Under the pieces are notes generated by a model. That model was not told the DNA's origin. It saw only the letters and a program-made list of their open reading frames with translations, and did not search any database. A DNA stretch of 63,998 bases, counting the filler, from Sandaracinaceae bacterium (GTDB lineage Bacteria > Myxococcota_A > Polyangia > Polyangiales > JADJQN01): assembly GCA_947483975.1 (NCBI GenBank). It is 12 parts of 12 records of this genome, joined end to end, with 100 filler letters (N's around TTAATTAATTAA, not from the genome) between each part and the next. Parts side by side here need not be neighbours in the genome. Positions count along the whole stretch, not along the records: positions 16,284 to 21,542 come from CANKOL010000362.1; 11 more parts are not named here. One strand, written 5' to 3'. Positions 1 through 21,642 of this stretch are shown here, one piece after another; the first letter of the stretch is position 1; every line of letters begins with the position of its first letter. Both the position numbers and the translations under genes were made by a program.

Positions 1-534
1 GAGCTTGCGCTCGCGGCGCCCGCGCGCGTGCGGAGCTTGACGCTGATCGCCACGTTCGGTGGCGGCTCGCTGCGGGCGCGGCTGCCGTCGCTGCCCGGGG
101 TCCGCGGCTTCGTCGCGGCGAACCTCGCCCGTGAGCCGGAGGCGCGCATCCGGGCGCTGCAGGCGCTGCTCTATCCGCCGGAGTTCCTGGCGAACAGCGA
201 CGTCGGCGCGCTGACCGAGCGCATGCGCGCGCAGCTGACGAAGCGCGTCCCGCGGGAGACGCTCCTCGGGCAGCTGCACGCGGTGTTTCGGCACGACGCG
301 CTCGGGCGCCTCCCGCAGCTGACGATGCCGACGCTGATCGTGCGCCCCGGGCGCGACCTGCTCGTGCGGCCGACGAACAGCGACCGGCTCAGCGAGCGCC
401 TCCCGCACGCGCGCCGCCTCGCGCTCCCCGACGCGGGGCACGGTGTCATCTTTCAGAGCGCGCGGGAGGTCAACGCGGCGGTCGCCGACCTCGTCGCGAC
501 GGTCGAAGCCGAGGGCGCGGCGAGCGCCCGCTGA
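1..534 (+). CDS. alpha/beta hydrolase, 5'-partial
   Basis: Frame open from base 1; C-terminal PTLIV..G.RDLLV and LPDAGHGV acid/His motifs. Confidence 0.8.
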   Translation, partial: ELALAAPARVRSLTLIATFGGGSLRARLPSLPGVRGFVAANLAREPEARIRALQALLYPPEFLANSDVGALTERMRAQLTKRVPRETLLGQLHAVFRHDALGRLPQLTMPTLIVRPGRDLLVRPTNSDRLSERLPHARRLALPDAGHGVIFQSAREVNAAVADLVATVEAEGAASAR

Positions 535-1518: not shown

Positions 1519-1631
1519 ACGATTCTCAGGCACCCGGCCGAGCGTAGCGCGCGCTGCCTTCGCAGGTTCGCGTGCGCGATTGCGCGCGCCGACGCTTCCG
1601 CTCGGGGCGCTCGCGCCCCACGGTGTGCGGG

Positions 1632-2429: not shown

Positions 2430-2509
2430 GTCTCCGCGAAAGCTCTCGAGCCGCGCGCGCTGCTGGACGTCGAATGGGCTGTGCGTAGTTCCCCGAAGGG
2501 AACAGCACC

Positions 2510-3076
2510 ATGCGCCAGCACATCGAACGGTGGCTCGGGCTCCTCGGCAGCGGCTTGCTCGAGAACTGGCAGGACGACCAGGCGATCGAGGCCGCCATCG
2601 AGATCGTCGGCGAGGCGCAGCTCTCGGATCTGCGCGAGTGGATGACGCATCAGTCCCACGAGGACTTGCAGGAGCTCGACGCGACGGCGATCGAGGTCTG
2701 CATCTGGATGGCGCGCGCCGATGGCATCGTCTCGGAGGCGGAGCGCATGCACATCGAGGAACTCATCGCGGCGAGTCATCTCGACCGCGCGACGGTCGTG
2801 CGTGTCCGCGAGGCGTGGGAGCGTCGCCCCAACCTGATCGGCCTCGCGGACCGGCTCCCGCATCCCATCCTGCGCGAGCTGCTGCTCGTGCTCGCGTGGC
2901 AGACGGCGTTCGCGGACGGGCGCTTGAACCGCGTCGAGCAGGGCGGCGAGCTGCTCCTCGCGACGCTGCTCGCGGTGCCCGAGGAGCGCTCCTACGCGCT
3001 GCGGCACTCGCTCGGTGCCATCTCGCGTCGGCCGCCCCCGTTGCACCCGCCGAGCGGCGCTCCACTGGCGAAGTAG
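2510..3076 (+). CDS. TerB-like (tellurite resistance) domain protein
   Basis: Paired MARADGIVSEAE and AFADGRLNRVE motifs. Confidence 0.7.
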   Translation: MRQHIERWLGLLGSGLLENWQDDQAIEAAIEIVGEAQLSDLREWMTHQSHEDLQELDATAIEVCIWMARADGIVSEAERMHIEELIAASHLDRATVVRVREAWERRPNLIGLADRLPHPILRELLLVLAWQTAFADGRLNRVEQGGELLLATLLAVPEERSYALRHSLGAISRRPPPLHPPSGAPLAK

Positions 3077-3119
3077 CTGCGGCGCGCCGCATCGCTGAGC
3101 CTCGCACGCGCGCGCGGCG

Positions 3120-4646
3120 TCAGGTCTCCTCGAGCTCCGCGAAGAGGTCCGCGACCTCCGCGCGCCCGCGCAGAGGCTCGCAGAAGCGGGTCGCGACGCC
3201 GAGCAGGGACTGCTCGAGCCGCGCGACCTCCGCGCCCTTCGCCTCGAGGTCCGTGTCCACCGTCTCCCGCGCATCGTCCGTCGTCTGCACCTGCGCGGCG
3301 AGCTTCTCGCGGAGCGCGCTCAGCTGAAAGTCGAGGTCCGCGACCTCGCGCTGCTTCGTGGCGAGGCGCTCGACGAGGATGCGCGTCGCCTCGCGCGCGT
3401 GCGACAGGTCCTCGCCGAGCACCTGCACCGCGTGCCCGAGCTGATCGCGCGCGGCGAGGTCGCTCGCCTCGAGCGAGTCGAGCTCGCGCTGTCGGCTGAG
3501 CCCCTTCGCCCGCAGCCCGCTGATGCGCGAGAGCACCTCGCGGATCTGGTCGAGCGCGTCGAGCGCGTCCGACGGCGGCGTCGTCTCCGGATAGGCGCGG
3601 CGCAGCATCTGCTCGAAGACCAGGCTGCGTCGCTCCCAGCGCTCGAGCGTCACCGCCGGCAGCGCGGTGCGCGAGCTCCGCGGCGGGAGCGACTCGCGTG
3701 GTCGCGACGTCTCCTCGCTGCCCGAGAGCGTCTCGAGCACGCGCACGATCCGGTGCGCGTCGACGGGGCGGCGCTCGGGCGACTTCTCGAGCAGCGCCGA
3801 GATCGTCGCGTCGAGCAGCGGCGGGCAGTCGTCGACGAACTCGCTGACGGCGTGCGGCGTCGCCTCGAGGTGCGCGATCAGGAGCCCGCCGACGTCGTGC
3901 TCGTCGTACGGCAGCCGGCCGGCGAGCATCTCGAAGAGCACGATGCCGAGCGAGTAGAGGTCCGACGCCGCGCCCGCGTCCTTGCCCTTGATGCGCTCGG
4001 GCGCGATGTACTGCGGCGTGCCGACGACCTCGCCTGCGAGCGTGAGCCGCGTGTCCCCGCGCGAGCGCGCGATGCCGAAGTCGACGAGCTTCAAGAGCGG
4101 CTCGCCGGACTCTGTCTTCACGATGAAGATGTTCTCGGGCTTCAGATCGCGGTGCACGACGCCGAGGTCGTGCGCGCGCGCGAGCCCGCGGGCCATCTGC
4201 AGCCCGAGCGCCGCGACCGTCTCGAGGGGCAGCGGTCCGCGCGTGAGCAGCTCGCGCAGAGACTCCCCGTCGAGCAGCTCCATCACGATGTACGGCAGCC
4301 CGTCGTCCGTCTCGCCGGAGTCGTAGATCGTGACGACGTTCTCGTGCGCGATGGCCGCCGCGCTGCGCGCCTCGCGCCGGAAGCGCTCGCGCAGCTGCTC
4401 GTCGCGCCCGAGGCGCGCGTGCAGGATCTTCACCGCGACGGGCCGGTCGACGAGCGTGTGCCGCGCCCGATAGACGACGGCCATCCCGCCCTCGCCGAGC
4501 ACGGACTCGACGAGATAGCGCCCCGCGATCAGCGTCCCGATCCGCGGATCGGCGTGCTCCTCGAGCGCCGCGCCGTCGACGACGCAGGTCGCGCGCGTGT
4601 CGTGGTACTCGAGCCTACAGACGGGACAAACGCGCATCACCGTCAC
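3120..4646 (-). CDS. Ser/Thr protein kinase with N-terminal Cys motif and C-terminal coiled coil
   Basis: GEGGMAVV, VAVK, HRDLKPEN, DFG, GTPQYIAPE. Confidence 0.95.
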   Translation of the reverse strand: MTVMRVCPVCRLEYHDTRATCVVDGAALEEHADPRIGTLIAGRYLVESVLGEGGMAVVYRARHTLVDRPVAVKILHARLGRDEQLRERFRREARSAAAIAHENVVTIYDSGETDDGLPYIVMELLDGESLRELLTRGPLPLETVAALGLQMARGLARAHDLGVVHRDLKPENIFIVKTESGEPLLKLVDFGIARSRGDTRLTLAGEVVGTPQYIAPERIKGKDAGAASDLYSLGIVLFEMLAGRLPYDEHDVGGLLIAHLEATPHAVSEFVDDCPPLLDATISALLEKSPERRPVDAHRIVRVLETLSGSEETSRPRESLPPRSSRTALPAVTLERWERRSLVFEQMLRRAYPETTPPSDALDALDQIREVLSRISGLRAKGLSRQRELDSLEASDLAARDQLGHAVQVLGEDLSHAREATRILVERLATKQREVADLDFQLSALREKLAAQVQTTDDARETVDTDLEAKGAEVARLEQSLLGVATRFCEPLRGRAEVADLFAELEET

Positions 4647-4649
4647 CCC

Positions 4650-5372
4650 TCAAAGCGTCGCGCAGCAGCGGAAGCCCGTCGAGTAATCCGAGTAGCTCAC
4701 GTCGTGCGCGGTCGTCTGATAGAGGCAGCCCTCCCCGTTGATGCGCGTGTCGACGTAGAAGCCGCCGCGGAACGTGCCAGCCGGGTCGGACGTCCACTCG
4801 TGGAGGTTGCCCATCAGGTCGAACGCGCCCTCCGGCGTGACGCAGCCCGCATGGCTGCCGGTCGTGGCGAGCGAAGCCGGCAACTGATTGATGCACGCGT
4901 CGCTCAGCTGCGACCAGATCCACGGGTCGCTCGTGCCGAAGCGCTCGACCGCGGGGTGCACCGCGCGCGCGTCGTTGCACACGCCGTTCATGCGCGTCGT
5001 GCCGTACGGATAGGTGCGCCCCGCGCTGCCCTCGCACGCGAGCAGCCACTCGGCGTCCGTGCAGAGGCGCTTGCCGGACTCTGCGCACGCCGCCGCCGCT
5101 TGCGTGCCGCTGATGTAGCCCTGCGGCACCGCGCCCTCGAGCGACACGGCGCCGACGCGGTTCGAGCCCGGATTGTGAAACGGCGACCAGCTTCCGATCG
5201 GCCCGGTGTCGTCGACGAGCACGAGCGCGGCTTCGTAACGGTCGATGCACGCGGTCGAGAACGGCACCATCCCGGGCAGGCAGCCGCCGGCGCCGGGCGC
5301 CTCGCTCAGCCCATCGTTGGGGGTCGGGCTGTCCGCGGGGTCGCACGCGCCGGGTGGCCCCGCGTCGGCCTC
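4650..5372 (-). CDS. FGE-sulfatase (SUMF1/EgtB/PvdO) domain protein, 5'-partial
   Basis: CIDRYEA, KRLCTDAEW, YPYG, DLMGNLHEW, GFRCC; frame open to contig end. Confidence 0.88.
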   Translation of the reverse strand, partial: EADAGPPGACDPADSPTPNDGLSEAPGAGGCLPGMVPFSTACIDRYEAALVLVDDTGPIGSWSPFHNPGSNRVGAVSLEGAVPQGYISGTQAAAACAESGKRLCTDAEWLLACEGSAGRTYPYGTTRMNGVCNDARAVHPAVERFGTSDPWIWSQLSDACINQLPASLATTGSHAGCVTPEGAFDLMGNLHEWTSDPAGTFRGGFYVDTRINGEGCLYQTTAHDVSYSDYSTGFRCCATL

Positions 5373-5472
5373 NNNNNNNNNNNNNNNNNNNNNNNNNNNN
5401 NNNNNNNNNNNNNNNNTTAATTAATTAANNNNNNNNNNNNNNNNNNNNNNNNNNNNNNNNNNNNNNNNNNNN
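5373..5472. other. artificial contig linker (first of 11; others at 10820, 16184, 21543, 26901, 32257, 37601, 42936, 48262, 53579, 58886)
   Basis: N44-TTAATTAATTAA-N44, stops in all six frames. Confidence 0.99.
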
Positions 5473-5983
5473 GCCCGCTGCCTCCGCGCGGCGTCACGCC
5501 CGTCGGCGGCTCGAGCCCGCGGGGCGGCGGCTCGGTGCTCGGCAGGTCCTCACCGACGGCCGTCGGCGTACCGATCTCCATCGGCGCAGCGATCGCGTCC
5601 GGCGGCACGACCGGCGCGGCGGGCGCCTCGCCGCCCTTGGTCAGCCAGCCGGCGACACCGCCGAGCAAGAGCAAGACGACGACGATGCCGCCGATCAGCG
5701 CCCAGGTGCGCGCGGACGACTGCACGCCGATCGACTGCAGCGACACGCTCGACGCGCCCGGATCGTACGGGCTCGGCATCTGCCCGAGCGGCGGGCCCGC
5801 GGGCGCCTGGCCGACGCGCACACTGCCGCCGGGCGCAGGGCTGACGGGCGCAGGGCTGACGGGTGCACCGCCCCCCGCGGACCGGAGCGTCGAGCCGGCG
5901 CTCTGAGGCGAGAGCCCCGCGCCGCACATGTTGCAGAACCGCGCATCGACCGCGTTTTGCGCACCGCAGGACTGACAGAACAT
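5473..5983 (-). CDS. zinc-ribbon membrane protein, 3'-partial
   Basis: MFCQSCGAQNAVDARFCNMCG, Pro-rich linker, one TM helix. Confidence 0.8.
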
Positions 5984-6017
5984 GGGCCGCAACATAGCAG
6001 CAGTGCCGACCGGCACG

Positions 6018-6680
6018 TTACTCGAGCAGCGCGCGCGGCCCCTCGCGGGACGCGAGCCCGACGTCCACCGGCGCGCTCACGACGAGCCCACCGAGCACGC
6101 TGACCTCGTTCTGCACGCCGGTTCGCAGATGCTCCGCGTGCATCCAGCGCACGCCGAGGCGCAGCGAGATCCGCACGGCGCCGAGCACGAGCGGCACCTC
6201 GAGCCCGCCGCCGAACACGAGCGCCGCTTGCGCGCGCTGCGCCGGTGAGAGCGCGACGACCCCAAGCTCCAGCCCGAGCGAGTCGACGAGCACGTCGAGC
6301 CACTCGCGCCCGAGCGAGCTGTTCGTCAGAAAGCGCGCGAGAAACAGCGGCCGCAGCTCGAGCCCACCGCCGACGCTCCACGCGGCGCCGGACCCGGCGA
6401 GCCCCTCCGCCTGCGCGAACGCAAACGGCCCGACGCTGTCGAGAAAGCGCGCGCGCAGCTCGAGCGTGCTCCCGTCGCGGGCGGCGCCGTGATCGACGAC
6501 CGCGCCCGCGCCGAGCCCCGCCGCGAGCCAGACGTCGCCGTCGAAGCGCCCGTAGAGCCCGTCGCCCGCGCCCTCGTCGGCCGCCGCACGCCCGGCGAAC
6601 GCGAGCACGAGCGCGACGAGGACGAGCGAGACGACGCGGAGACCTCGCGGCACGGGCGCGACGCTAGCACGCTCACTCAT
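6018..6680 (-). CDS. secreted hypothetical, probable beta-barrel-like protein
   Basis: Signal peptide ending AAA|DEG; alternating amphipathic strands (GGGLELRP, GGGLEVP). Confidence 0.65.
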   Translation of the reverse strand: MSERASVAPVPRGLRVVSLVLVALVLAFAGRAAADEGAGDGLYGRFDGDVWLAAGLGAGAVVDHGAARDGSTLELRARFLDSVGPFAFAQAEGLAGSGAAWSVGGGLELRPLFLARFLTNSSLGREWLDVLVDSLGLELGVVALSPAQRAQAALVFGGGLEVPLVLGAVRISLRLGVRWMHAEHLRTGVQNEVSVLGGLVVSAPVDVGLASREGPRALLE

Positions 6681-7308
6681 CGGGCTCGTCGGGATCGCCG
6701 CCGCGGAGCCAAGTGACGACGAAGAGCACGGGGATGACGAACACGAATTCGAGGTCCGCCTCGAGCCCGCCGCTCACCTCCCAGCGCTCGGGCCCGGTGA
6801 CGCTGCGGCGCAGATCCACGTACAGCTGCAGCCCATAGCCGTAGCGAGAGAGGTAGTTGTACGGCCGGTAGCCGAACGCCGCGCGCGCGAGCGCGAGCGC
6901 GCCATCCGCCCCGTCGAGCGCGCCCGCCGCGGTGCCGTCGTCGCGCCTCGACGCGTAGCCGAGCGCCGCCGTCAGCACGAGCGGCAGCGCCGGCACGACG
7001 GGCAGCAGCACGCTCGCGCCGAGCGTGAGCTCCGCCGTCGTCAGGTCGTTCGTCCGCAGCTCGAGCGAGGGCCCGACCCGCACCGTGTCGGCGAGCCGCG
7101 GGCCGAACGAGAGGTCCGCGACGAGGTGCGCGTCGAACAGCCCATCGGTCGGCAGTCCGCGGACGAACGCCGCGCCGCCGCCTGTGCCGAGTCGAACCGA
7201 GACCTGCACATCGGCTCGAGCGCGAGGAGGTGCGGTCGCGACGAGGAGAGCGAGCGTCGAGCAGAGGGTCGCAGCGAGCGTGAAGCGCCGCCTCAGAGCA
7301 CGAGCCAC
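6673..7308 (-). CDS. secreted hypothetical, probable beta-barrel-like protein
   Basis: GTG start overlapping upstream gene; signal ending ARA|DVQ; amphipathic beta strands. Confidence 0.6.
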   Translation of the reverse strand: MARALRRRFTLAATLCSTLALLVATAPPRARADVQVSVRLGTGGGAAFVRGLPTDGLFDAHLVADLSFGPRLADTVRVGPSLELRTNDLTTAELTLGASVLLPVVPALPLVLTAALGYASRRDDGTAAGALDGADGALALARAAFGYRPYNYLSRYGYGLQLYVDLRRSVTGPERWEVSGGLEADLEFVFVIPVLFVVTWLRGGDPDEPDE

Positions 7309-10819: not shown

Positions 10820-10920
10820 NNNNNNNNNNNNNNNNNNNNNNNNNNNNNNNNNNNNNNNNNNNNTTAATTAATTAANNNNNNNNNNNNNNNNNNNNNNNNN
10901 NNNNNNNNNNNNNNNNNNNC

Positions 10921-11998: not shown

Positions 11999-13567
<1,569 letters not shown>

Positions 13568-15351: not shown

Positions 15352-15439
15352 GTTATCCCCACGTCCACTTCAGACCGCAGACAATGCGCTTCCGGCGGAT
15401 GCTGAGCTCCTTCTTGTGCCGACACGTACGCTCGTCGCT

Positions 15440-15743
15440 CTGCGAGCGCGCAATGCGCGCGATGCGCGCGATGCCGGCGAGGCCTTTCCACGCCGCGGCG
15501 TCGTCGATCCACGAGAGGTAGTGGGACACCGTCATGGTCCGCTCCTCGATGCGTCCGTGTCCGGCGTCCGTCTCGTGGTGCGTCGTGAGCTTCGGCGGAG
15601 GGTCGTTGAGAGGACGTGATTCGCGTCTGGCGTCCGCGAGGTAAGTGCCGATCTGCGCGTTCAGCGTCGGGGTGGTTGTCCTTGACTTGAAGTACGTATT
15701 TGCCGCGGCGGTCGATGATCTTCGCGGCAATCGCACGCTGGCA
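15440..15743 (-). mobile_element. ISAs1-family transposase internal fragment, frameshifted
   Basis: CQRAIAAKIIDRRGKYVLQVKDNHP/TL...DAGHGRIEER...WKGL. Confidence 0.85.
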
Positions 15744-15745
15744 TC

Positions 15746-16183
15746 GTAGAAGACGCACGCGTCGACGCCGTGGGTGGGTTCGTAGCTCTCGTAGCGGAAG
15801 GTGAAGCTCGTCGCGCACTCGATCCCATCGACGAGGTGGTGCCGGTACACGCTGGCCTCGGCCGCGCCGTCGCCGCTCTTCCACACGCCGAACGCGCCGG
15901 TCGTCGCTCGCGCGAAGGGACCGCGCCAGAAGTAATACGCGCCGCCGAAGAAGTCCTCGGCGCCTGTGCCGAGCAGCCAGTCGTCATCGCAGCGGAGCTC
16001 GTGGTCGCCCTCGAGCACGTTCCACTCGTACATCTCCGTGCGGATCGACCAAGTCGATGGCCGGATCGCCGGTACCAGCGCCTGCTCTGCCGGTGGCCCA
16101 GAAGCGCGTGAGCACGCCGACGCCCGCCACGTCGAGCAGCACCTCGGCGTCTCCATCGCGGGCGGCGAAGTGGCTCCAGTCGC
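15746..16183 (-). pseudogene. second, internally deleted copy of the DUF2961 gene
   Basis: 15746-16047 matches 12020-12321 (4 mismatches); 16051-16183 identical to 13188-13320. Confidence 0.95.
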
Positions 16184-16284
16184 NNNNNNNNNNNNNNNNN
16201 NNNNNNNNNNNNNNNNNNNNNNNNNNNTTAATTAATTAANNNNNNNNNNNNNNNNNNNNNNNNNNNNNNNNNNNNNNNNNNNNC

Positions 16285-16452
16285 GTATCGGCGACCGACG
16301 CGACGCTGCTCGCGCTGCTCGGCTACCTCACCGGGCAGCTTCCGGCGCTGCTCGGCGGGCTGCTGACGCTGACGCCCGCGCCCGACGCGCGACGCCGCGG
16401 CGCCCCGCGCGCGCCCGCCGGGAACTTGCCCACGGCTTGCCCGACGGGGTAG
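16285..16452 (+). CDS. 3' end of membrane protein, probably another UPF0104 flippase-like protein
   Basis: VSATDATLLALLGYLTGQLPALLGGLL resembles last helix of downstream flippase domain (IGAGEAVLVPLLYFAIDMAFSAAGGVF). Confidence 0.55.
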   Translation, partial: VSATDATLLALLGYLTGQLPALLGGLLTLTPAPDARRRGAPRAPAGNLPTACPTG

Positions 16453-16478
16453 CCGCGCCTATGCCGTCCGACCGCCGT

Positions 16479-19400
16479 ATGGACCCGAAGCGCAAGCAGC
16501 TCCTCCTCACGCTCCTCAAGGTCGTCGTCGCCGTCGGGATCTTCGCGTACCTCGGGCGCGAGCTCACCCACAAAGAGAACATCGGCGCGCTCCGCGAGCG
16601 CCTCGCGAACCTCTCCTGGGGCTGGGTCGCCGTCGCCGCCGTGATCCAAGCGCTCGCGATCGGCTGCAGCATCGCGCGCTGGCAGCTGCTCCTCCGCGGG
16701 CAGGGCGTCCGGGCGCCGCTCTCGCACCTGTTCTCCGCGTTCATGTCGGGGCGCTTCCTCAGCGCGATCTCGCCGGGCGGCTGGACGGGCCTCGACGCCT
16801 ACCGGATCTTCGACATCGCGTCGCGCACGAAGAAGAGCGCGCGCGCCGTCGCCACCGTCGGCATCGACAAGCTGCTCGGACAGGCGGCCCTCGGCAGCGT
16901 GATCGTCGTCGCCGCGAGCGCGTTCGGCGTGCCGTACCTCGGCGTCGCGAAGGTCGCGATGCTCGCCGCGGCGTTCCTCGGGCTGATCGTCACGATCTTC
17001 GCGCTGCTGCTCCGCCCGACGCTCTTCCGCACGCTCTCCGCGCGCCTCCCGGCGAAGGTCCGCACGCGCCTGCAGACGATGGTGGACGCGGTCAGCGCCT
17101 ATCAGGGCAAGGGGCGGCTGCTCCTCGGCGCGTTCGGGCTCTCCTGGGGCACGCACCTCTTCACGAACCTGATCACCGTCGCGGCGGCGTTCGCGCTCGG
17201 CCTCCGTGTCTCGCCGGGCGAGGTGTTCTTCGTCTCGACGATGATGGTGATCGCGACGCTGCTGCCGATCTCGCCGAACGGCATGGGCCTGCGCGAGGCG
17301 GCCGCCGTCTACCTGTTTGGGCAGGTCGGCATCGGCGCGGGCGAGGCGGTGCTCGTGCCGCTCCTCTACTTCGCGATCGACATGGCCTTCAGCGCGGCGG
17401 GCGGCGTGTTCTTGCTGCTGCCGAAGCGCGAGCCGGCGATCGTGGTGGAGGACGCAGAGCGGGAAGATCGGGCGAACGCGGAGATCCCGCTCGCGGCCCC
17501 GACGACCTGGCCGACGCTCACGCGCGGGCTCTCGCTCGGGCTCGGCGCGGGGCTCTTCGCGGGGCTGCTCGTGGGGCTCGCGGAGGCGGGCGTGATCATC
17601 GCGTCCTCGGGCGGGCGCGCGGAGCACACCGTGCTCGCGTACGGCGCCGTCGTGTACGCCGTGCTGCTCGGCCTGGGCGGCGCGTGCGGTGGGCTCGCGC
17701 TCGCGTGGAGCGGGCGCGTGATGCAGCGCGAGGCGTTCGAGGAGAACCGCGCGTTTGGGCTCTGGGTCGGGCTGCTCGTCGCGGCGCCGACGCTCGCGCT
17801 CGGCGCGTTCCGCGTGCGGCGCGACGTGTTCCAAGAATTGCTCGTGTGGGCGAGCCCGAAGGGCGCGCTCGTCTTGCTCGGCTGCGCCGTCGCCGCGTTC
17901 TTGCTCTTCGCGCTCGTCGGGCTGCTCTTCGCGCGCGTCACCTACTCGCGCTTCGGCGCGTGGCTGCTGCGCCCGTGGGGCGCGCCCGTCGTCGTCGCCG
18001 TGCTGATCGCCGCGGTGCTCGGCTACGTCATCGTGCAGAAGCCGGCGCCCGTCGCCGAGGCGCGACTCAACCGCCCCGCGGCGCCCGCGCAGGCGGGTCC
18101 GATCATCTTCATCGTCGTCGACACGCTGCGCGCGAGCCGCCTGCCGACGTACGGCTACGCGGACGGGCGCACGCCGCACCTCGACGCCTTCGCGCACGAC
18201 GCGCTCCGCTTCGAGAACGCCTTCTCGAACGCCTCGTGGACGCGCCCGAGCTTCGCGACGCTGCTGACCGGCAGCTACCCCTCGCGGCACTCGACGATGG
18301 GCAAGAGCGACTCGCTGCCCGAGGCGCTCGTCACGATGCCCGAGGCGCTCAAGGCGCACGGCTACGCGACGAGCGGCATCGTGACGAACTACAACGTCGC
18401 GCCGTTCTTCCACTTCGATCAGGGCTTCGATCGCTACACCTACCTCGAGCCGAACTTCGTCCTCGGCGCCGACGACACCGCCGCCAAGCTGCTGCTGATC
18501 CAGTTCGCGCGGCAGACGTACGAGAAGCTCGAGGAGAAGCTGCTCGGCGGCACGCCGCCCGGGCGCGCCTACCAAGACGGCGCGACGGTGAACCGCGCCG
18601 CCTTCGCGGAGCTAGACCGCCTCGCGCGCCCAGAGAACGCGGGCGCGCCGCCGTTCCTCTTCGTCGCGTACATGGACCCGCACGACCCGTACTACCCGCA
18701 CCCGTACGGCAGCGCGGCGGGGTATTCGCGCGCCGCGCACCAGAACCCGACGCTCGACGAGGTGCCGCACCTGAGCGCGCTCTACGACGGCGAGATCACC
18801 TATTGGGACCAGCAATTCGGCGCGCTCGTCGCGGAGCTGAAGCGCCGGCACGTCTACGAGAACGCCACGATCATCATCACCGGCGACCACGGCGAGGAGC
18901 TCGGCGAGCACGGCGGCTTCTGGCACGGCACGACGCTCTACGACGAGCAGGTGCGCGTGCCGCTCTTCGTGAAGCTGCCGTTCAACCAGCGCGGCGGGCA
19001 GGTGCGCACCGAGTGGGTGCAGCACGTCGACCTGATGCCGACGGTGCTCAAGCTCGCGGGCGTCGAGGTGCCGCCGGGCGTGCAGGGGCACGACGTCTTC
19101 GACCGCACCGTGCGGCGCGACGAGGCCTTCGCGGAGGAGAGCCAAGAGGGCACGATCCTGCAGAGCCTGCGGCTGCAGCGCGGCGGCAGTGAGCTGAAGC
19201 TCATCACGGCGAACGAGGGCAACCCGCGCGGGCTCGAGACGACGGAGCTCTACCGGCTCGACGTCGACCGGCACGAGCGCGTGAACCTCGCGACGGAGCT
19301 GACGTGGGAGACCTCGCACGTGCGCGCTCAGCTCACGAGCTTCGGAACGCGCGCACAGCAGGGGCGCGTCAGCGGGCAGCAGGTCGCGATGACCGAGAAC

Positions 19401-19511
19401 GAGTGCCGTCGCCTCGCGGCGCTCGGCTACGTGCAGGCGAGCGACTGTGACCACCTGAGCGGCGGCGCGCTGCCTCCCGAGCCAGCGCCCGCCCCGACGC
19501 CGCGCCCGTAG
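16479..19511 (+). CDS. UPF0104/LPG-synthase-TM flippase-like domain fused to sulfatase-like (alkaline phosphatase superfamily) domain
   Basis: RWQLLL, PGGWTGLDAYR, LLPISPNGMGLRE; then ~5 TMs; IVVDTLRA, SWTRPSFATLLTG, YMDPHDPY, GDHGE, LAALGY. Confidence 0.88.
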   Translation: MDPKRKQLLLTLLKVVVAVGIFAYLGRELTHKENIGALRERLANLSWGWVAVAAVIQALAIGCSIARWQLLLRGQGVRAPLSHLFSAFMSGRFLSAISPGGWTGLDAYRIFDIASRTKKSARAVATVGIDKLLGQAALGSVIVVAASAFGVPYLGVAKVAMLAAAFLGLIVTIFALLLRPTLFRTLSARLPAKVRTRLQTMVDAVSAYQGKGRLLLGAFGLSWGTHLFTNLITVAAAFALGLRVSPGEVFFVSTMMVIATLLPISPNGMGLREAAAVYLFGQVGIGAGEAVLVPLLYFAIDMAFSAAGGVFLLLPKREPAIVVEDAEREDRANAEIPLAAPTTWPTLTRGLSLGLGAGLFAGLLVGLAEAGVIIASSGGRAEHTVLAYGAVVYAVLLGLGGACGGLALAWSGRVMQREAFEENRAFGLWVGLLVAAPTLALGAFRVRRDVFQELLVWASPKGALVLLGCAVAAFLLFALVGLLFARVTYSRFGAWLLRPWGAPVVVAVLIAAVLGYVIVQKPAPVAEARLNRPAAPAQAGPIIFIVVDTLRASRLPTYGYADGRTPHLDAFAHDALRFENAFSNASWTRPSFATLLTGSYPSRHSTMGKSDSLPEALVTMPEALKAHGYATSGIVTNYNVAPFFHFDQGFDRYTYLEPNFVLGADDTAAKLLLIQFARQTYEKLEEKLLGGTPPGRAYQDGATVNRAAFAELDRLARPENAGAPPFLFVAYMDPHDPYYPHPYGSAAGYSRAAHQNPTLDEVPHLSALYDGEITYWDQQFGALVAELKRRHVYENATIIITGDHGEELGEHGGFWHGTTLYDEQVRVPLFVKLPFNQRGGQVRTEWVQHVDLMPTVLKLAGVEVPPGVQGHDVFDRTVRRDEAFAEESQEGTILQSLRLQRGGSELKLITANEGNPRGLETTELYRLDVDRHERVNLATELTWETSHVRAQLTSFGTRAQQGRVSGQQVAMTENECRRLAALGYVQASDCDHLSGGALPPEPAPAPTPRP

Positions 19512-19522
19512 CGAGCGCGCTC

Positions 19523-19657
19523 GGGCTCCGTGCTCAGAGCGACACGACCGGCGCGCGCACGGGCTCCGTGGTCAGAGCGACACGACCGGCGCGCGCACGG
19601 GCTCCGTGGTCAGAGCGACACGACCGGCGCGCGCTCGGCGATCAGAGCGACACGACC
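19523..19657. repeat. 38-bp tandem repeat x3 plus a fourth 16-bp core
   Basis: TCAGAGCGACACGACC at 19534, 19572, 19610, 19642. Confidence 0.95.
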
Positions 19658-19752
19658 CAGACGAGCGCGGCGCCGATGGCGCTGACGGCGAAGATGCTGA
19701 GCGCGAGGTTCCAGAGATCGGCGGGGTGAACATGGACTTGCGAGAGAGTCAT
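19642..19752 (-). CDS. small membrane peptide, 36 aa (MTLSQVHVHPADLWNLALSIFAVSAIGAALVWVVSL)
   Basis: GGAGG 5 nt before ATG; single hydrophobic helix; promoter-like sequence upstream. Confidence 0.7.
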   Translation of the reverse strand: MTLSQVHVHPADLWNLALSIFAVSAIGAALVWVVSL

Positions 19753-19769
19753 CGTGGCCTCCGGGTCTA

Positions 19770-19812
19770 TCTCTAACGATGACAGTACGGACTGTCAAGG
19801 TTGCGACTGTCA
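19770..19812 (-). promoter_or_regulatory. sigma70-like promoter overlapped by TGACAGT-N4-ACTGTCA operator and a third half-site
   Basis: TTGACA 19798-19793, 17-nt spacer, TAGAGA; half-sites at 19780-19786, 19791-19797, 19806-19812. Confidence 0.6.
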
Positions 19813-19946
19813 CGGATCTGCGAGATTCCCCCCGCGCGCCCCAGACGCAGAGACGCCCCGCCGACTCGAGGGTCAGCGGGGCGCGTTTTACGGATGGGTG
19901 TTCAGCGGAGCGTCAGCGGAGTGGGCTGTGGCGGCGCCGTCGGGAC

Positions 19947-21542
19947 CTAGGGCGTGGTCCTGCAGGTGAGCGTCACGCTGAAGGCGCTGAGGCTGCCGGT
20001 GTCGCCGGAGGCGAAGTCCTGGGCCCGCAGCAGCCAGGTGCCGTTGGCGAGGGTGCCGATCAGCGGCGAGTAGTCTGCGCCATAGGTGCCGGACAGAATG
20101 GGCGTGCCGCCGGGGGGCCACGCGGCGCCGCCGGCGACGAACGTGTACGGCCCGAGGAGGTCGGCGTTGCCGCCGACGCGATTCGAGAGGGTCGCGGTCG
20201 CGGTCGTCGGGCCGACCACGTCGAGCCTGACGTCACCCGCAAAGGTGTGGGGGGGGCCCCACGCGTGGGTCGTGCGCACCGACGCGACGACGCAGGTCGG
20301 GAGCGCCACCGCGAGGCCTAGGTTCACCGCGCCTCCGCCGCTGCCGAAGAAGCCGTCCGGCACGGCGACCGTGGGGCCCGCGTAGCTGACCGTGTACGAG
20401 CAGAGGCTCGGCGCGCCGCTGCAGACGAAGCCAGCCTCGATCGCGCACGAGGCGCTGCAGCCGTCGCCCGCGCGGACGCCGCCGTCGTCGCACGTCTCTG
20501 CGCCCGCCTGCACGCCGTCGCCACAGGTCGCCACGCACCGACTCGGGGTGCCCGTGCACGTCCAGCCTGCCTCGATCGCGCAGGTCGCAGAGCAGCCGTC
20601 GCCGGGGATGCGGTCGCCGTCGTCGCAGGCCTCGAGGCCGGGGTGGATGCCGTCGCCGCAGAGCGGCGCGCACGCGCTCGGCGCGCCTGTGCAGCGGTAG
20701 CCGACCTCGACCGCGCACGTCGCAGAGCAGCCATCACCCGACGCCGCGCCGCCGTCATCGCACGCCTCGACGCCCGCGATCACGCCGTCGCCGCAGGTCG
20801 CCACGCACCGACTCGGCGTGCCCGTGCAGGTGTAGCCGACCTCGATCGTGCACAGCGAGGAGCAGCCGTTGCCCGAGCTCGTGCCGCCGTCGTCGCACGC
20901 CTCGACGCCCGCGATCACGCCGTCGCCGCAGACCGGCGTGCACACGCTCGGCGCGCCCGTGCAGCGGTAGCCGACCTCGACCGCGCACGTCGCGGAGCAG
21001 CCGTCGGCCGCCGCCGTGCCGCCGTCATCGCAGGCCTCGGTGCCGGTGCGCAGGCCGTCGCCGCAGACCGGCGCGCACACGCTCGGCGTGCCCGAGCAGG
21101 AGTAGCCGACCTCGACCGTGCACGTCGCGGAGCAGCCGTCGCCGGTCCGGAGACCACCGTCGTCACACACCTCGGCGCCCGTGAGCAGGCCGTCGCCGCA
21201 GACCGGCGCGCACACGCTCGGGGCGCCCGCGCAGGCGTAGCCCAGCTCGACCGTGCACATCGCGGAGCAGCCGTCGCCAGCCGCCACGCCGCCGTCGTCG
21301 CAAGCCTCGACGCCCGCGCGCACGCCGTCGCCGCAGTCCGTCACGCACACGCTCGGCGCGCCCGAGCAGACGAAGCCAGCCTCGAGCGTGCACGTCGCAG
21401 AGCAGCCGTTGCCCGCCGCGGTGCCGCCGTCGTCGCAAGCCTCGGCGCCCGCGCGCACGCCGTCGCCGCAGGTCGTCACGCACACGCTCGGGCTGCCCGA
21501 GCAGGCGAAGCCAGCCTCGAGCGTGCACGTCGCCGAGCAGCC
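19947..21542 (-). CDS. myxococcal Cys-rich repeat (DUF4215-like) protein with C-terminal proprotein-convertase P-domain, 5'-partial
   Basis: 8 x 45-aa CGDG...EACDDG...GCS..C units; HTFAGDV...NGTWLLRAQD..GDTGSL. Confidence 0.88.
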   Translation of the reverse strand, partial: GCSATCTLEAGFACSGSPSVCVTTCGDGVRAGAEACDDGGTAAGNGCSATCTLEAGFVCSGAPSVCVTDCGDGVRAGVEACDDGGVAAGDGCSAMCTVELGYACAGAPSVCAPVCGDGLLTGAEVCDDGGLRTGDGCSATCTVEVGYSCSGTPSVCAPVCGDGLRTGTEACDDGGTAAADGCSATCAVEVGYRCTGAPSVCTPVCGDGVIAGVEACDDGGTSSGNGCSSLCTIEVGYTCTGTPSRCVATCGDGVIAGVEACDDGGAASGDGCSATCAVEVGYRCTGAPSACAPLCGDGIHPGLEACDDGDRIPGDGCSATCAIEAGWTCTGTPSRCVATCGDGVQAGAETCDDGGVRAGDGCSASCAIEAGFVCSGAPSLCSYTVSYAGPTVAVPDGFFGSGGGAVNLGLAVALPTCVVASVRTTHAWGPPHTFAGDVRLDVVGPTTATATLSNRVGGNADLLGPYTFVAGGAAWPPGGTPILSGTYGADYSPLIGTLANGTWLLRAQDFASGDTGSLSAFSVTLTCRTTP

Positions 21543-21642
21543 NNNNNNNNNNNNNNNNNNNNNNNNNNNNNNNNNNNNNNNNNNNNTTAATTAATTAANN
21601 NNNNNNNNNNNNNNNNNNNNNNNNNNNNNNNNNNNNNNNNNN

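What the first reader, a model, noticed from the sequence alone, without database searches (positions are those of the whole stretch)
16285..19511. Flippase-like domain fused to a Thr-nucleophile sulfatase-fold enzyme, behind a probable second flippase gene
Seen: one ~1010-aa ORF with a UPF0104/LPG-synthase-TM domain, ~5 further TMs and an alkaline-phosphatase-superfamily domain (DTLR, PHDPY, DHGE). The active-site motif is W-T-R-P-S-F rather than the C/S-x-P-x-R needed for formylglycine. The upstream gene end also resembles a UPF0104 last helix. Known: LtaS, EptA and OpgB use a Thr nucleophile behind a 5-TM anchor, and MprF couples flippase and enzyme in one chain. Inference: a one-polypeptide flip-and-transfer machine decorating surface glycans or lipids with phospho- or sulfo-groups. 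I know of no characterised example.
Basis: partly seen in the sequence, partly recalled or inferred. Interest (0 to 1): 0.7.

Follow-up and report, generated by a model that had tools for sequence, protein, structure and literature searches.

The report
Lipid-flippase domain fused to periplasmic phosphoesterase-like enzyme
A myxobacterial membrane protein joins a lipid-flipping module of the MprF kind to an outward-facing enzyme that has the sulfatase fold but the active site of a phosphate-transferring enzyme, a conserved but untested design for modifying envelope lipids.

Summary
Window 16461-19511 (+) is one unbroken gene of 1016 aa. It has a PF03706 flippase-like domain, five more membrane helices and a PF00884 sulfatase-fold domain. 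An invariant Thr in W-T-R-P-S-F sits where sulfatases carry the formylglycine Cys/Ser.

The fragment at 16285-16452 is the end of a second, separate flippase-like gene. This rests on orthology with one Polyangiales genome. The window is a chain of roughly 5.3-kb contigs, so only 16284-21542 is real context.

The fusion is conserved. All 120 best homologs (47-98% identity, Polyangia/Myxococcota) have it, and contigs from other studies span it.

The core module is 5-TM plus enzyme, and it often occurs without the flippase domain. Two genomes carry the two parts as adjacent genes.

Fold and profile comparisons give MprF subdomain 1, then a LapC/LtaS/EptA-like 5-TM-anchored periplasmic domain. That domain fails both sulfatase signatures and keeps EptA-type Asp/His residues.

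Best reading (0.55): a lipid translocase coupled to a periplasmic Thr-nucleophile phosphoryl-transfer enzyme. It is not a sulfatase. Substrate and acceptor are unknown.

It is uncharacterised, carries only automatic database names, and this scan already noted the family on another genome (e1-2274636). I rate it a new variant of a known kind.

The parts
16285..16452 (+). 3' end (55 codons plus TAG) of a separate flippase-like (PF03706/PplT) gene. It is cut by the contig start and ends 8 nt before the fusion gene's ATG.
   Evidence: Searches give the sequence and the stop. Of 45 aligned residues, 35 are identical (E 8e-18) to residues 282-322 of L001:9335-10342. That protein is a PF03706 protein, E 2.2e-29. 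The fragment alone gives no Pfam hit. The rest of the gene was not found in the own assembly.
16461..19511 (+). The fusion gene, 1016 aa from the ATG. The frame is already open from TTG 16437, which gives 1024 aa and is the P0001 numbering used in this report.
   Evidence: All 120 best homologs share the architecture. Contigs of runs X10 and X12 span 16284-19546 and 16284-19563.
16512..17399 (+). Flippase-like domain (residues 26-321) with the MprF subdomain-1 fold: six full helices and two half-helix hairpins.
   Evidence: PF03706, E 4.2e-34. TIGR00374, 68.4 bits against a cut-off of 43.2. VIA-align: MprF 6lvf_B Z 20.8, 288 aligned, model 17-332 against chain 28-338. VIA-align on the N-terminal model: 6lvf_B Z 20.2 and 9j8q_A Z 18.5. 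The Foldseek top 5 are all MprF.
17418..17516 (+). Acidic linker (residues 328-360), inferred to be cytoplasmic. The split forms of other genomes break at this place.
   Evidence: mean D+E 8.0, K+R 4.9. Split ORFs occur in L051 and L053.
17517..18038 (+). Five-helix membrane bundle (residues 361-534) that anchors the enzyme domain. It carries invariant G368/G372/G376/G380, E383, Y402, Y407, R462, D463 and E467.
   Evidence: Full-length PbgA 6xlp_A aligns over model 352-979 (Z 31.5, 467 aligned). The bundle alone gives Z 7.3 to PbgA residues 1-201, which is weak. The same bundle precedes the enzyme in 69 unfused representatives.
18090..19436 (+). Alkaline-phosphatase-superfamily (sulfatase-fold) enzyme domain (residues 552-1000), inferred to be periplasmic. 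It ends in an L-x-x-L-G-Y motif.
   Evidence: PF00884, E 2.8e-47. VIA-align Z 36.4 to 6hr5_A, and 26-33 to other S1 sulfatases and PMH. The Foldseek top hit is PMH 2w8s, E 1.4e-15. hhalign to LapC gives E 3e-9 and to EptA E 9.3e-7.
18237..18254 (+). W601-T602-R-P-S-F606. T602 (18240-18242) is the presumed nucleophile at the formylglycine position. F606 lies at the sulfatase Arg position.
   Evidence: alignments. These residues are invariant in 56 of 56 family members. T is present in 144 of 150 representatives. WT[KR]P[SAG] is found in 121 of 121 and 110 of 150. T602 aligns to LapC T302.
18120..18122 (+). D562, the presumed first metal ligand, at the end of the first beta-strand.
   Evidence: Invariant. 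Present in 144 of 150 representatives. Aligned to LapC D268.
18681..18683 (+). H749 in Y-M-D-P-H-D-P-Y.
   Evidence: Present in 145 of 150 representatives. Aligned to E. coli EptA H385. By spacing this equals MCR-1 His395, a second-zinc ligand (PMC5031297, passages).
18885..18890 (+). D817-H818 of G-D-H-G-E, presumed metal ligands.
   Evidence: Present in 149 of 150 and 150 of 150 representatives. Aligned to EptA D455/H456, which correspond to MCR-1 Asp465/His466 (PMC5031297).
18924..18926 (+). H830 of F-W-H-G, twelve residues after H818, as in EptA and MCR-1.
   Evidence: Present in 148 of 150 representatives. Aligned to EptA H468 and LapC H468. In the sulfatase alignments the sulfate-binding Lys falls on G831.

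Best explanation
The gene encodes an inner-membrane protein built of two working modules.

Module 1 (residues ~17-327) has the fold of MprF subdomain 1. This is the part of MprF that holds the lipid head group while it crosses the bilayer, so the module is expected to move a lipid between leaflets without an energy source.

Module 2 (residues ~361-1000) is a five-helix anchor plus an outward-facing alkaline-phosphatase-superfamily domain. This layout matches LapC/PbgA, LtaS and EptA.

The module 2 active site has four elements:
- an invariant Thr (T602), the presumed nucleophile;
- a D562/D817/H818 metal site, as in EptA and MCR-1;
- two further invariant His (H749, H830) at the positions of the EptA/MCR-1 second-zinc histidines;
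- none of the basic residues that bind sulfate in true sulfatases.

The most likely chemistry is attack of the Thr alkoxide on a phosphodiester of a membrane lipid head group in the outer leaflet. The phospho-group would then pass to an envelope acceptor, or to water. The translocase module would either deliver the donor lipid or return the lipid product.

Shown here: the architecture, its conservation, the folds and the active-site make-up.

Inferred: the topology, phosphoryl rather than sulfuryl chemistry, a lipid substrate, and any coupling between the two modules. The substrate and the acceptor are unknown.
For: Architecture and conservation:
- Pfam and NCBIfam domains.
- All 120 listed homologs, of 594 with E <= 1e-3, carry PF03706 plus PF00884.
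- The active-site residues are invariant or nearly so in 56 family members and in 144-150 of 150 representatives.

Folds:
- MprF subdomain 1: Z 20.8 and 20.2. The Foldseek top 5 are all MprF, and the next hit has E 0.056.
- Enzyme domain: Z 36.4 to 26 to S1 sulfatases and PMH, 31.4 to YejM, 27.3 to LtaP, 26.3 to LtaS, 25.2 to EptC, 24.1 to EptA and 23.2 to NPP.
- Full-length PbgA aligns over model 352-979.

Active site:
- hhalign to E. coli EptA has probability 91% and E 9.3e-7. It puts H749, D817/H818 and H830 on EptA H385, D455/H456 and H468.
- hhalign to LapC has probability 96% and E 3e-9. It puts D562, T602 and H830 on D268, T302 and H468.
- The roles of those residues come from PMC5031297 and PMC7576196 (passages read).

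Not a sulfatase:
- PS00523 and PS00149 match 0 of 121 family members and 0 of 150 representatives.
- The formylglycine position is Thr, and the Arg55, Lys113 and Lys375 positions are F606, T650 and G831.
- The signatures and the statement that Thr cannot give formylglycine are from PMC5066984 (passages read).

Topology:
- Six full helices plus two hairpins plus five helices give an odd count. The MprF helix scheme is from PMC8131360.
- Mean K+R is 19.7 in the loops assigned to the cytoplasm and 8.5 in those assigned to the periplasm.
- Soluble paralogs in the same genome carry lipoprotein-type signal sequences.

Functional link between the modules:
- They are fused in most genomes.
- They are adjacent separate ORFs in G039 and G074.
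- The G039 ORF is 50% identical to the window's fused domain, against 24-36% to stand-alone paralogs.

MprF acts as an energy-independent scramblase (PMC11980842, abstract read).
Against: - No experiment exists and no substrate is known.
- By sequence and fold the enzyme domain is nearer to true sulfatases and phosphonate monoester hydrolases than to EptA or LtaS.
- Every named NCBIfam enzyme family scores far below its cut-off.
- The hhalign to EptA covers only the C-terminal half, 130 columns. T602 is therefore matched to the EptA Thr only by position in the fold.
- LapC, the best profile match among the 5-TM proteins, is mainly a regulator, and its enzymatic role is debated.
- The 5-TM plus enzyme module is common without any fused flippase domain: 69 of 150 representatives. 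Five of the 7 unfused genomes have no flippase-like gene nearby.
- On a quick tree of the enzyme domain the fused state is scattered: 24 changes against a shuffled mean of 27.4. The coupling is therefore dispensable or easily lost.
- Gene neighbourhoods are not conserved.
- I could not inspect the models' coordinates. The proximity of the named residues and the contact between the modules were not checked.
Confidence: 0.55

Rival explanations
1. The enzyme is a plain periplasmic hydrolase, a phosphodiesterase or phosphatase that strips head groups from membrane lipids or scavenges phosphate. No transfer to an acceptor takes place. The flippase-like domain only feeds it lipid during membrane remodelling, for example under phosphate limitation.
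For: The active site is the same as in the best explanation.

Phosphate-related neighbours occur in some loci:
- Ppx/GppA plus a histidine phosphatase lie downstream in 4 loci of one genus.
- NPP-type Phosphodiest genes are adjacent and co-directional in L032 and L034.
- A phosphate-selective porin is divergent in L036.

YejM is reported to have Mg-dependent phosphatase activity (PMC7576196, passages). The nearest solved relatives, PMH and the sulfatases, are hydrolases.
Against: These neighbours are seen in few lineages, and four of the loci are one genus. Nothing of the kind lies on the window's own contig. The 5-TM anchor is typical of transferases that use lipid donors, which is my recollection of LtaS, EptA and OpgB. 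No regulatory evidence is available.
Confidence: 0.22
2. The outward-facing domain is mainly a lipid-binding sensor or regulator like LapC/PbgA. Catalysis would be residual at most, and the protein would report or adjust the lipid balance of the envelope.
For: LapC is the best profile match among the 5-TM proteins (E 3e-9 over 262 columns). Full-length PbgA aligns over the 5-TM and enzyme parts (Z 31.5), and the periplasmic domain of YejM gives Z 31.4.
Against: This family keeps the Asp-His metal pair (149 of 150 and 150 of 150 representatives), whereas LapC has Gly/Arg451 at those positions. The nucleophile and all presumed ligands are under strong conservation. The NCBIfam LapC model scores 31.7 bits against a cut-off of 825.
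Confidence: 0.1
3. It is a true sulfatase, or a sulfotransferase-like enzyme, acting on a sulfolipid or sulfated glycan, as the database names 'choline-sulfatase' and 'arylsulfatase A-like' suggest.
For: The best sequence and fold matches are S1 sulfatases. The own genome has 9 FGE-sulfatase-domain matches.
Against: - Thr cannot be turned into formylglycine (PMC5066984, passages).
- PS00523 and PS00149 fail in all 121 family members and all 150 representatives.
- The Arg55, Lys113 and Lys375 positions are F, T and G.
- All scores are far below the curated cut-offs, for example 126 bits against 433.
- None of the 7 PF00884 matches in this genome has a C/S-x-P-x-R motif.
Confidence: 0.03
4. The fusion is an assembly or gene-calling artefact of a fragmented metagenome bin.
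For: The bin has 524 contigs and is 81% complete. The contig is only 5259 bases long.
Against: The frame is unbroken. All 120 best homologs from many sources are fused, including one on a 10.3-Mb contig of Sandaracinus amylolyticus. Single contigs of runs from two other studies span the whole gene, and a third spans both domain junctions.
Confidence: 0.01

Closest known systems
MprF (bifunctional aminoacyl-phosphatidylglycerol synthase / lipid translocase; structures 6lvf, 7duw, 7f47, 9j8q, 9goe)
   Same: - The N-terminal ~310 residues have the fold of MprF subdomain 1: Z 20.8 and 20.2, 263-288 residues aligned.
- The Foldseek top 5 are all MprF.
- The domain matches PF03706.
- Both proteins join a lipid-moving domain and a lipid-related enzyme in one chain.
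   Different: - There is no MprF subdomain 2: only model 40-323 aligns to PaMprF.
- No GNAT-type synthase domain is found.
- The enzyme is of another superfamily and sits, by inference, on the periplasmic side, whereas MprF's synthase is cytoplasmic.
- Sequence similarity to MprF itself is marginal: NF033480 gives 17.7 bits against a cut-off of 600, and there were no phmmer or profile hits to PDB MprF chains.
LapC / YejM / PbgA (5-TM inner-membrane protein with a periplasmic alkaline-phosphatase-fold domain)
   Same: - Both have a five-helix anchor plus an outward-facing domain.
- Full-length 6xlp_A aligns over model 352-979 (Z 31.5), and the periplasmic domain 6vat gives Z 31.4.
- hhalign gives E 3e-9 and matches D268, T302 and H468 to D562, T602 and H830.
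   Different: - This family keeps the Asp-His metal ligands where LapC has Gly-Arg451.
- The NCBIfam score is 31.7 against a cut-off of 825.
- The membrane parts show no sequence match, and the structural match for the bundle alone is weak (Z 7.3).
- LapC has no flippase-like domain.
EptA / MCR-1, LtaS and related 5-TM-anchored Thr-nucleophile phospho-group transferases
   Same: - Both have a 5-TM anchor, an outward-facing alkaline-phosphatase fold and a Thr at the nucleophile position.
- The D-H-G-E...H-G and H-x-P histidines align with EptA.
- The fold scores are Z 23.5-27.3.
   Different: - All scores lie far below the family cut-offs: EptA 39.6 against 561, LtaS 29.7 against 970.
- Only the C-terminal 130 columns align to EptA by profile.
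- The domain is closer to sulfatases and PMH.
- There is no EptA-type membrane-domain Pfam match.
- Donor and acceptor are unknown.
S1 formylglycine sulfatases and phosphonate monoester hydrolases
   Same: These give the best fold and sequence matches: Z up to 36.4, PMH 2w8s at Foldseek E 1.4e-15, and 7oz8 at phmmer E 3.6e-24. The C-terminal subdomain is shared (SGSH_C).
   Different: There is no Cys or Ser for formylglycine, no Arg55, and no G-K-x-H signature. The protein is membrane-anchored and fused to a translocase.
Stand-alone and fused PplT / UPF0104 proteins (E. coli YbhN/PplT; GpgF of the GlcN-PG operon)
   Same: The domain family is the same: TIGR00374 scores above its cut-off. The theme of a flippase-like domain beside or fused to a lipid-modifying enzyme is described in preprint 10.1101/2022.03.11.483950 (section 5 read) and in PMC12713373 (passages read).
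   Different: Neither text mentions a sulfatase-fold partner: 0 occurrences of 'sulfatase' in either. In the cases those texts describe, the known or predicted partner enzymes are cytoplasmic.

Membership tests
PplT / UPF0104 flippase-like domain (PF03706, TIGR00374) | Match to the family models above their curated cut-offs | tested here: met
   PF03706 scores 118.8 bits against 33.4. TIGR00374 scores 68.4 bits against 43.2.
PplT / UPF0104 flippase-like domain (PF03706, TIGR00374) | Lipid translocation activity | not testable with these tools
   This needs a proteoliposome scrambling assay.
MprF | Subdomain-1 fold (TM1, 2, 3a/3b, 4-6, 7a/7b, 8) | tested here: met
   6lvf_B gives Z 20.8 over model 17-332 against chain 28-338. 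The N-terminal model gives Z 20.2 and 18.5. The scheme is from PMC8131360.
MprF | Subdomain 2 (TM9-14) following subdomain 1 | tested here: inconclusive
   Five helices follow, not six. The alignment to PaMprF stops at model residue 323. The 6lvf_B range reaches residue 417 with only 263 residues aligned.
MprF | C-terminal aminoacyl-PG synthase (tandem GNAT) domain | tested here: not met
   Pfam finds only Sulfatase-clan families after residue 550. NF033480 scores 17.7 bits against a cut-off of 600.
S1 formylglycine sulfatases | PROSITE PS00523 with Cys/Ser nucleophile and Arg55 | tested here: not met
   The pattern matches 0 of 121 family members and 0 of 150 representatives. The query has S-W-T-R-P-S-F. 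The alignments are, and the pattern is from PMC5066984.
S1 formylglycine sulfatases | PROSITE PS00149 (G-[YV]-x-[ST]-x2-[IVAS]-G-K-x-[FYWMK]-[HL]) | tested here: not met
   The pattern matches 0 of 121 and 0 of 150. The query has G-Y-A-T-S-G-I-V-T-N-Y-N.
S1 formylglycine sulfatases | Sulfatase fold | tested here: met
   Z is 36.4 to 6hr5_A and 26-33 to many S1 chains. Foldseek E is 1e-15 to 1e-14.
EptA/MCR phosphoethanolamine transferases | Score above the curated family cut-off | tested here: not met
   NF007160 scores 39.6 bits against 561, and NF028537 scores 36.8 against 500.
EptA/MCR phosphoethanolamine transferases | Zn1 ligands Asp-His and the two conserved His (MCR-1 Asp465/His466, His395, His478) | tested here: met
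   hhalign to E. coli EptA puts D817/H818, H749 and H830 on D455/H456, H385 and H468. The equivalence to MCR-1 numbering is by identical spacing, with roles from PMC5031297.
EptA/MCR phosphoethanolamine transferases | Thr nucleophile and acidic first ligand aligned to Thr285/Glu246 | tested here: inconclusive
   The N-terminal half was not aligned to EptA by hhalign. T602 and D562 do align to LapC T302 and D268 and to the formylglycine and Asp positions of sulfatases.
EptA/MCR phosphoethanolamine transferases | Phosphoethanolamine transfer from PE to lipid A | not testable with these tools
   This needs biochemistry or lipid A mass spectrometry.
LapC / YejM / PbgA | Score above the NF038282 cut-off | tested here: not met
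   31.7 bits against 825.
LapC / YejM / PbgA | 5-TM anchor followed by a periplasmic alkaline-phosphatase-fold domain | tested here: met
   6xlp_A aligns over model 352-979 against chain 3-586, Z 31.5, 467 aligned. hhalign gives E 3e-9 over the periplasmic domain.
LtaS | Score above the NF053595 cut-off | tested here: not met
   29.7 bits against 970. The fold score is Z 26.3 to 2w5q_A.

The most novel reading that the evidence does not exclude
The protein is a mirror image of MprF. A scramblase-type domain brings a lipid made on the cytoplasmic face to an enzyme on the periplasmic face of the same chain. The enzyme takes the lipid's phospho-head group onto Thr602 and writes it onto an envelope molecule. 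This would be a new, self-contained envelope-decoration route in Polyangia and related Myxococcota. The flippase-like domain would also clear or recycle the lipid by-product. The repeated fusion, fission and loss of the domain would then show how bacteria tune lipid supply to periplasmic transferases of the LtaS/EptA kind.
Probability: 0.3. Interest if true: 0.75.

Novelty: new variant of a known kind. Interest (0 to 1): 0.5.

Why it matters
How lipids cross the bacterial inner membrane to feed periplasmic head-group transferases such as LtaS, EptA and OpgB is poorly understood. How the by-products of those enzymes return is equally unclear.

This family ties a domain of the only bacterial scramblase type so far characterised (MprF) to a periplasmic enzyme of that general class. 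The two parts are fused, split or unlinked in related genomes. That makes it a natural test bed for whether lipid flipping and periplasmic phospho-group chemistry are coupled.

The family also shows that a large clade annotated 'sulfatase', 'choline-sulfatase' or 'arylsulfatase A-like' cannot be sulfatases of the known kind. The clade is defined by W-T-[KR]-P-S. This matters for annotating sulfur and phosphorus cycling genes in metagenomes.

A cultured species, Sandaracinus amylolyticus, carries a 49%-identical fused ortholog (P0097), so the family is open to experiment.

Tried and rejected
- **DUF2961 ORF as neighbour.** The ORF at 15353-16156 (-) looked like the upstream neighbour. I rejected it because it lies on another contig.
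- **Rest of the upstream gene.** A search of the own assembly found only the fusion gene, the fragment itself and a 36% paralog on C34.
- **Sequence searches of the N-terminal part against PDB.** phmmer with the N-terminal 544 aa gave 0 hits. A profile of 18 flippase-like domains gave one chance hit, E 0.2. Fold search was needed to see MprF.
- **Conserved neighbours.** None is general across 22 genome loci or 11 metagenome loci. Recurrent genes are lineage-bound: an FG-GAP protein in 6 loci, Ppx/GppA plus His_Phos_1 in 4 loci of one genus, and NPP-type genes in 2 loci.
- **FGE-sulfatase matches.** The own genome has 9, which tells nothing either way. An EptA family search of the own genome matched only this gene, weakly, at 23.2 bits.
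- **Cluster look-up.** For ten unfused representatives it gave only 'sulfatase' or 'sulfatase-like hydrolase/transferase [bacterium]', or no name.
- **ESM Atlas look-up.** It gave unfused clusters of 620-649 aa, commonest in Myxococcota and Candidatus Zixiibacteriota. These are leads only.
- **RNA.** No RNA holder was listed among the sequencing runs.
- **Promoter and terminator scan** of the contig found 0 and 0.
- **Literature.** 'LPG_synthase_TM' plus 'sulfatase' gave 0 papers. 'Sulfatase' plus 'threonine nucleophile' plus 'formylglycine' gave 0. 'Flippase-like' plus 'sulfatase' gave 1 irrelevant paper. 'UPF0104' plus 'flippase' gave 3 papers, none on this fusion.
- **Complex prediction.** Contact between the modules is therefore untested.
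- **Tree of the enzyme domain.** It was built with FastTree on 137 of 151 rows. Rows with under 85% of the profile columns filled were dropped, and 35 rows were left unlabelled. It cannot separate repeated loss, repeated gain, split genes and labelling errors.

Full report
**What is in the window.**
The window is not one stretch of genome. It is a chain of contigs of about 5.3 kb joined by N44-TTAATTAATTAA-N44 spacers: 22 N runs of 44 bases. The contig that holds the finding is window 16284-21542.

That contig carries three things:
- the last 55 codons and TAG stop of a + strand gene (16285-16452);
- eight bases later, an ATG (16461) that opens a frame running to 19511, which is 1016 aa, or 1024 aa from an upstream in-frame TTG at 16437 (P0001, whose numbering is used here);
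- a convergent gene for a DUF4215 cysteine-rich repeat protein at 19947-21485 (-).

The DUF2961 ORF to the left lies on another contig and is not a neighbour.

**The observation.**
Pfam finds LPG_synthase_TM (PF03706) at residues 26-321 (E 4.2e-34) and Sulfatase (PF00884) at 556-876 (E 2.8e-47). There are weaker matches to SGSH_C and to the NPP-type Phosphodiest family.

NCBIfam places the N-terminus in the 'flippase-like domain' family TIGR00374, above its cut-off. Every named enzyme family stays far below its cut-off:

| Family | Bits | Cut-off |
|---|---|---|
| choline-sulfatase | 126 | 433 |
| arylsulfatase | 124 | 481 |
| EptA | 39.6 | 561 |
| LapC/YejM | 31.7 | 825 |
| LtaS | 29.7 | 970 |
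| MprF | 17.7 | 600 |

In alignments to solved sulfatases and a phosphonate monoester hydrolase, T602 of W-T-R-P-S-F lies opposite the formylglycine Ser or Cys. F606 lies opposite the Arg of C/S-x-P-x-R.

**Is the fusion real and conserved?**
Yes. A search of 5.8 billion clustered proteins gave 594 hits at E <= 1e-3 among the 8000 candidates scored. All 120 listed are 970-1060 aa, 47-98% identical and carry both PF03706 and PF00884.

The named ones come from Polyangiales, Sandaracinaceae or Myxococcota metagenome bins, as 'sulfatase-like hydrolase/transferase'. One comes from Sandaracinus amylolyticus, as 'Choline-sulfatase' (P0097, on a 10.3-Mb contig).

Contigs assembled from public runs support the same thing. 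Runs of two other studies span the whole gene (X10 6570 nt, X12 6587 nt; 104 and 115 differences; one compensated +1/-1 pair four bases apart) and run 3.3 kb further upstream. A contig of a third study spans both domain junctions.

In genome samples the gene is patchy:
- 30 of 151 genomes of the class have a match at E <= 1e-100. Of these, 22 are full-length fused, 7 hold only the 5-TM plus enzyme part, and 1 is cut by a contig end.
- 56 of 201 genomes of the phylum match the 5-TM plus enzyme part at E <= 1e-80.

**The core module and the accessory domain.**
A search with the enzyme domain alone against 1.84 billion representatives gave 107,747 hits at E <= 1e-3. I scored the best 150 with profiles built from the family alignment:
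- 35 hold flippase-like domain plus 5-TM plus enzyme;
- 5 hold flippase-like domain plus enzyme;
- 69 hold 5-TM plus enzyme only, typically 600-680 aa with the enzyme starting near residue 200;
- 41 hold the enzyme part only, some of them truncated.

So the conserved unit is the 5-TM-anchored enzyme, and the flippase-like domain is an addition.

On a quick tree of the enzyme domain the fused state is scattered. The tree has 137 rows: 32 fused, 70 unfused and 35 unlabelled. Fourteen rows with poor coverage were dropped. There are 24 changes, against a mean of 27.4 (range 19-32) in 1000 label shuffles. I read this only as 'labile or mislabelled'.

The 7 unfused genomes of the class sample divide as follows:
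- G039 and G074 carry a full flippase-like ORF immediately upstream on the same strand, in another frame, breaking exactly in the linker. In G039 the gap is 10 nt.
- The G039 ORF is 50% identical to the window's fused domain but only 24-36% identical to stand-alone paralogs. It is therefore a fission or frameshift product of the fusion.
- The other five have flippase-like genes only elsewhere. Four were checked within 8 kb by HMM. For G028 the matches lie on other contigs.

Fused, split-adjacent and unlinked states among relatives argue for a functional link that is not obligatory.

**The second flippase gene.**
The 55-residue fragment gives no Pfam hit by itself. Of 45 aligned residues, 35 are identical (E 8e-18) to the C-terminus of a 336-aa PF03706 protein. 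That protein lies directly upstream of the 80%-identical ortholog in a Polyangiales genome, L001.

The rest of the gene is missing from the assembly.

It is not a family-wide partner:
- among 22 genome loci it is adjacent only in L001 and two genes away in L020;
- the 79%-identical metagenome relatives L044 and L045 have fructose-1,6-bisphosphatase directly upstream instead.

This paralog is about 30% identical to the fused domain.

**Folds.**
The whole-protein model has mean pLDDT 83.7 and the N-terminal 536-aa model 85.3.

The N-terminal domain matches MprF and nothing else convincingly:
- VIA-align Z 20.8 (288 aligned, model 17-332 against 6lvf_B 28-338), Z 20.2 and Z 18.5;
- the five best Foldseek hits are all MprF (E 2e-5 to 2.3e-4), and the sixth has E 0.056.

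The aligned range is MprF subdomain 1 (Leu24-Arg325: TM1, 2, 3a/3b, 4-6, 7a/7b, 8), which holds the head-group cavity (PMC8131360, passages read). MprF subdomain 2 is not matched.

The five helices that follow align, together with the enzyme domain, to full-length PbgA/LapC (6xlp_A, Z 31.5, model 352-979). Alone they match its membrane part only weakly (Z 7.3).

The enzyme domain matches as follows:

| Target | Z |
|---|---|
| S1 sulfatases and phosphonate monoester hydrolases | 36.4 to 26 |
| YejM periplasmic domain | 31.4 |
| LtaP | 27.3 |
| LtaS | 26.3 |
| EptC | 25.2 |
| EptA | 24.1 |
| MCR-1 | 23.5-23.7 |
| NPP | 23.2 |

The best Foldseek hit is PMH 2w8s, E 1.4e-15.

**Active site.**
In 56 family members W601, T602, R603, P604, S605, F606, D562, T563, H618, K623, D747, H749, D750 and H830 are invariant. 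D817 and H818 are at least 90% conserved.

Across the 150 representatives the counts are:

| Residue | Present in (of 150) |
|---|---|
| D562 | 144 |
| T602 | 144 (Ser once) |
| H749 | 145 |
| D817 | 149 |
| H818 | 150 |
| H825 | 148 |
| H830 | 148 |
| N651 | 136 |

Both PROSITE sulfatase signatures, taken from the SulfAtlas paper, match none of the 121 family members and none of the 150 representatives. W-T-[KR]-P-[SAG] matches 121 of 121 and 110 of 150. The same paper states that Arg55 is 99% conserved in formylglycine sulfatases. It also states that Thr would give a ketone rather than formylglycine, and that Thr-bearing PF00884 members cannot be called sulfatases (PMC5066984, passages read).

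In the alignments the sulfatase Lys/His pair (G-K-x-H) falls on T650/N651. The second Lys falls on G831.

Profile comparison with E. coli EptA (probability 91%, E 9.3e-7, 130 columns) puts H749, D817/H818 and H830 on EptA H385, D455/H456 and H468. The spacings of 71 and 12 residues are those of MCR-1 His395, Asp465/His466 and His478. These are the Zn1 ligands and the two histidines that hold the second zinc in LptA (PMC5031297, passages read).

Comparison with E. coli LapC (probability 96%, E 3e-9, 262 columns) puts D562, T602 and H830 on D268, T302 and H468, and H818 on R451. The residue roles are from PMC7576196 (passages read).

The domain thus has a sulfatase-like scaffold with the catalytic make-up of the Thr-nucleophile phosphoryl-transfer enzymes.

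All 7 PF00884 matches in this 81%-complete genome lack C/S-x-P-x-R. Six carry Thr at the aligned position, and the seventh is NPP-like.

**Topology (inferred).**
The MprF scheme gives six full helices and two hairpins for subdomain 1, with both ends in the cytoplasm. Five more helices then put the enzyme outside.

Family-wide, the loops assigned to the cytoplasm hold 19.7 Lys+Arg on average. Those assigned to the periplasm hold 8.5.

Soluble paralogs of the enzyme in the same genome begin with lipoprotein-type signal sequences.

One periplasm-side loop (R462-D463...E467) is charged and invariant. It may belong to the substrate site.

**Mechanism and rivals.**
The best-supported reading is a lipid translocase of the MprF type joined to a periplasmic Thr-nucleophile metallo-enzyme. 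That enzyme would act on a phospho-head group of a membrane lipid and pass it to an acceptor or to water. PaMprF was shown to scramble many lipids without an energy source (PMC11980842, abstract read).

I cannot tell transferase from hydrolase. Some loci carry phosphate-related neighbours: Ppx/GppA plus a histidine phosphatase in four loci of one genus, NPP-type genes adjacent in L032 and L034, and a phosphate-selective porin in L036. These give the hydrolase and phosphate-scavenging rival some weight.

A LapC-like sensor role is less likely, because the metal ligands LapC has lost are kept here. A true sulfatase is very unlikely. An artefact is excluded.

**Novelty.**
Flippase-like (PplT/UPF0104) domains fused to, or encoded beside, lipid-modifying enzymes are a described theme. 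The PplT preprint counts 148 architectures and names glycosyltransferases, kinases, hydrolases and 'phosphotransferases', but never uses the word sulfatase. GpgF is a predicted flippase in the GlcN-PG operon.

The protein is in public databases under automatic names. I found no paper on it. An earlier report of this scan described the same family on another genome with the same reading (e1-2274636).

I therefore rate it a new variant of a known kind, of moderate interest.

Noticed in passing
window 5373-5472, 10820-10919, 16184-16283, 21543-21642 and seven further places: The window is a chain of contigs of about 5.3 kb joined by N44-TTAATTAATTAA-N44 spacers. Neighbourhood arguments across these spacers are invalid.
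   Followed up: yes
window 19947-21485 (-): A convergent gene encodes a 512-aa DUF4215 cysteine-rich repeat protein (8 repeats, E 3.8e-54) with a weak proprotein-convertase P-domain match at its C-terminus. No link to the fusion gene was seen in other loci.
   Followed up: partly
own genome G000: C179:338-2914, C31:22244-24694, C234:3-1319, C89:1021-3000, C50:7574-9016, C12:590-1765: Six further PF00884 or NPP-like paralogs were found. None has a C/S-x-P-x-R motif, and most have W-T-x-P-S. C179 and C31 have lipoprotein-type signals and an N-terminal domain of about 400 aa with no assigned family. Five of the six end in an L-x-x-L-G-Y motif like the fusion protein, and the role of that motif is unknown.
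   Followed up: partly
L051 (G039:C143) 3787-4842 and 4853-6760; L053 (G074:C386) 2419-3597 (-) and 452-2509 (-): These are split versions of the fusion. A full flippase-like ORF and a 5-TM plus enzyme ORF lie back to back in different frames, and the break is in the linker. Whether they are real two-gene operons or frameshifts was not resolved.
   Followed up: partly
L004 5766-10020 (-): Divergent from the ortholog lie three genes: a PMT_2 (GT-C) glycosyltransferase, a GT2 glycosyltransferase and a 353-aa membrane protein without a Pfam match. This is the layout of a polyprenyl-phosphate-sugar pathway. It was seen in this one locus only.
   Followed up: no
L002 7376-9358 (+): The DNA methyltransferase-like ORF upstream of the ortholog looks interrupted by an intein-like insert, which begins with Cys and ends ...T-H-N-C. 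A PD-(D/E)XK nuclease gene lies next to it.
   Followed up: no
window 18132-18136: Contigs of runs X10 and X12 carry a +1 insertion behind 18132 and a 1-base deletion at 18136. The pair is compensated and changes about one codon at the start of the enzyme domain.
   Followed up: no
window 11999-13567 (-) and 15353-16156 (-): Two ORFs with DUF2961 matches (E 1.3e-19 and 2.1e-11) lie on other contigs of the chain.
   Followed up: no
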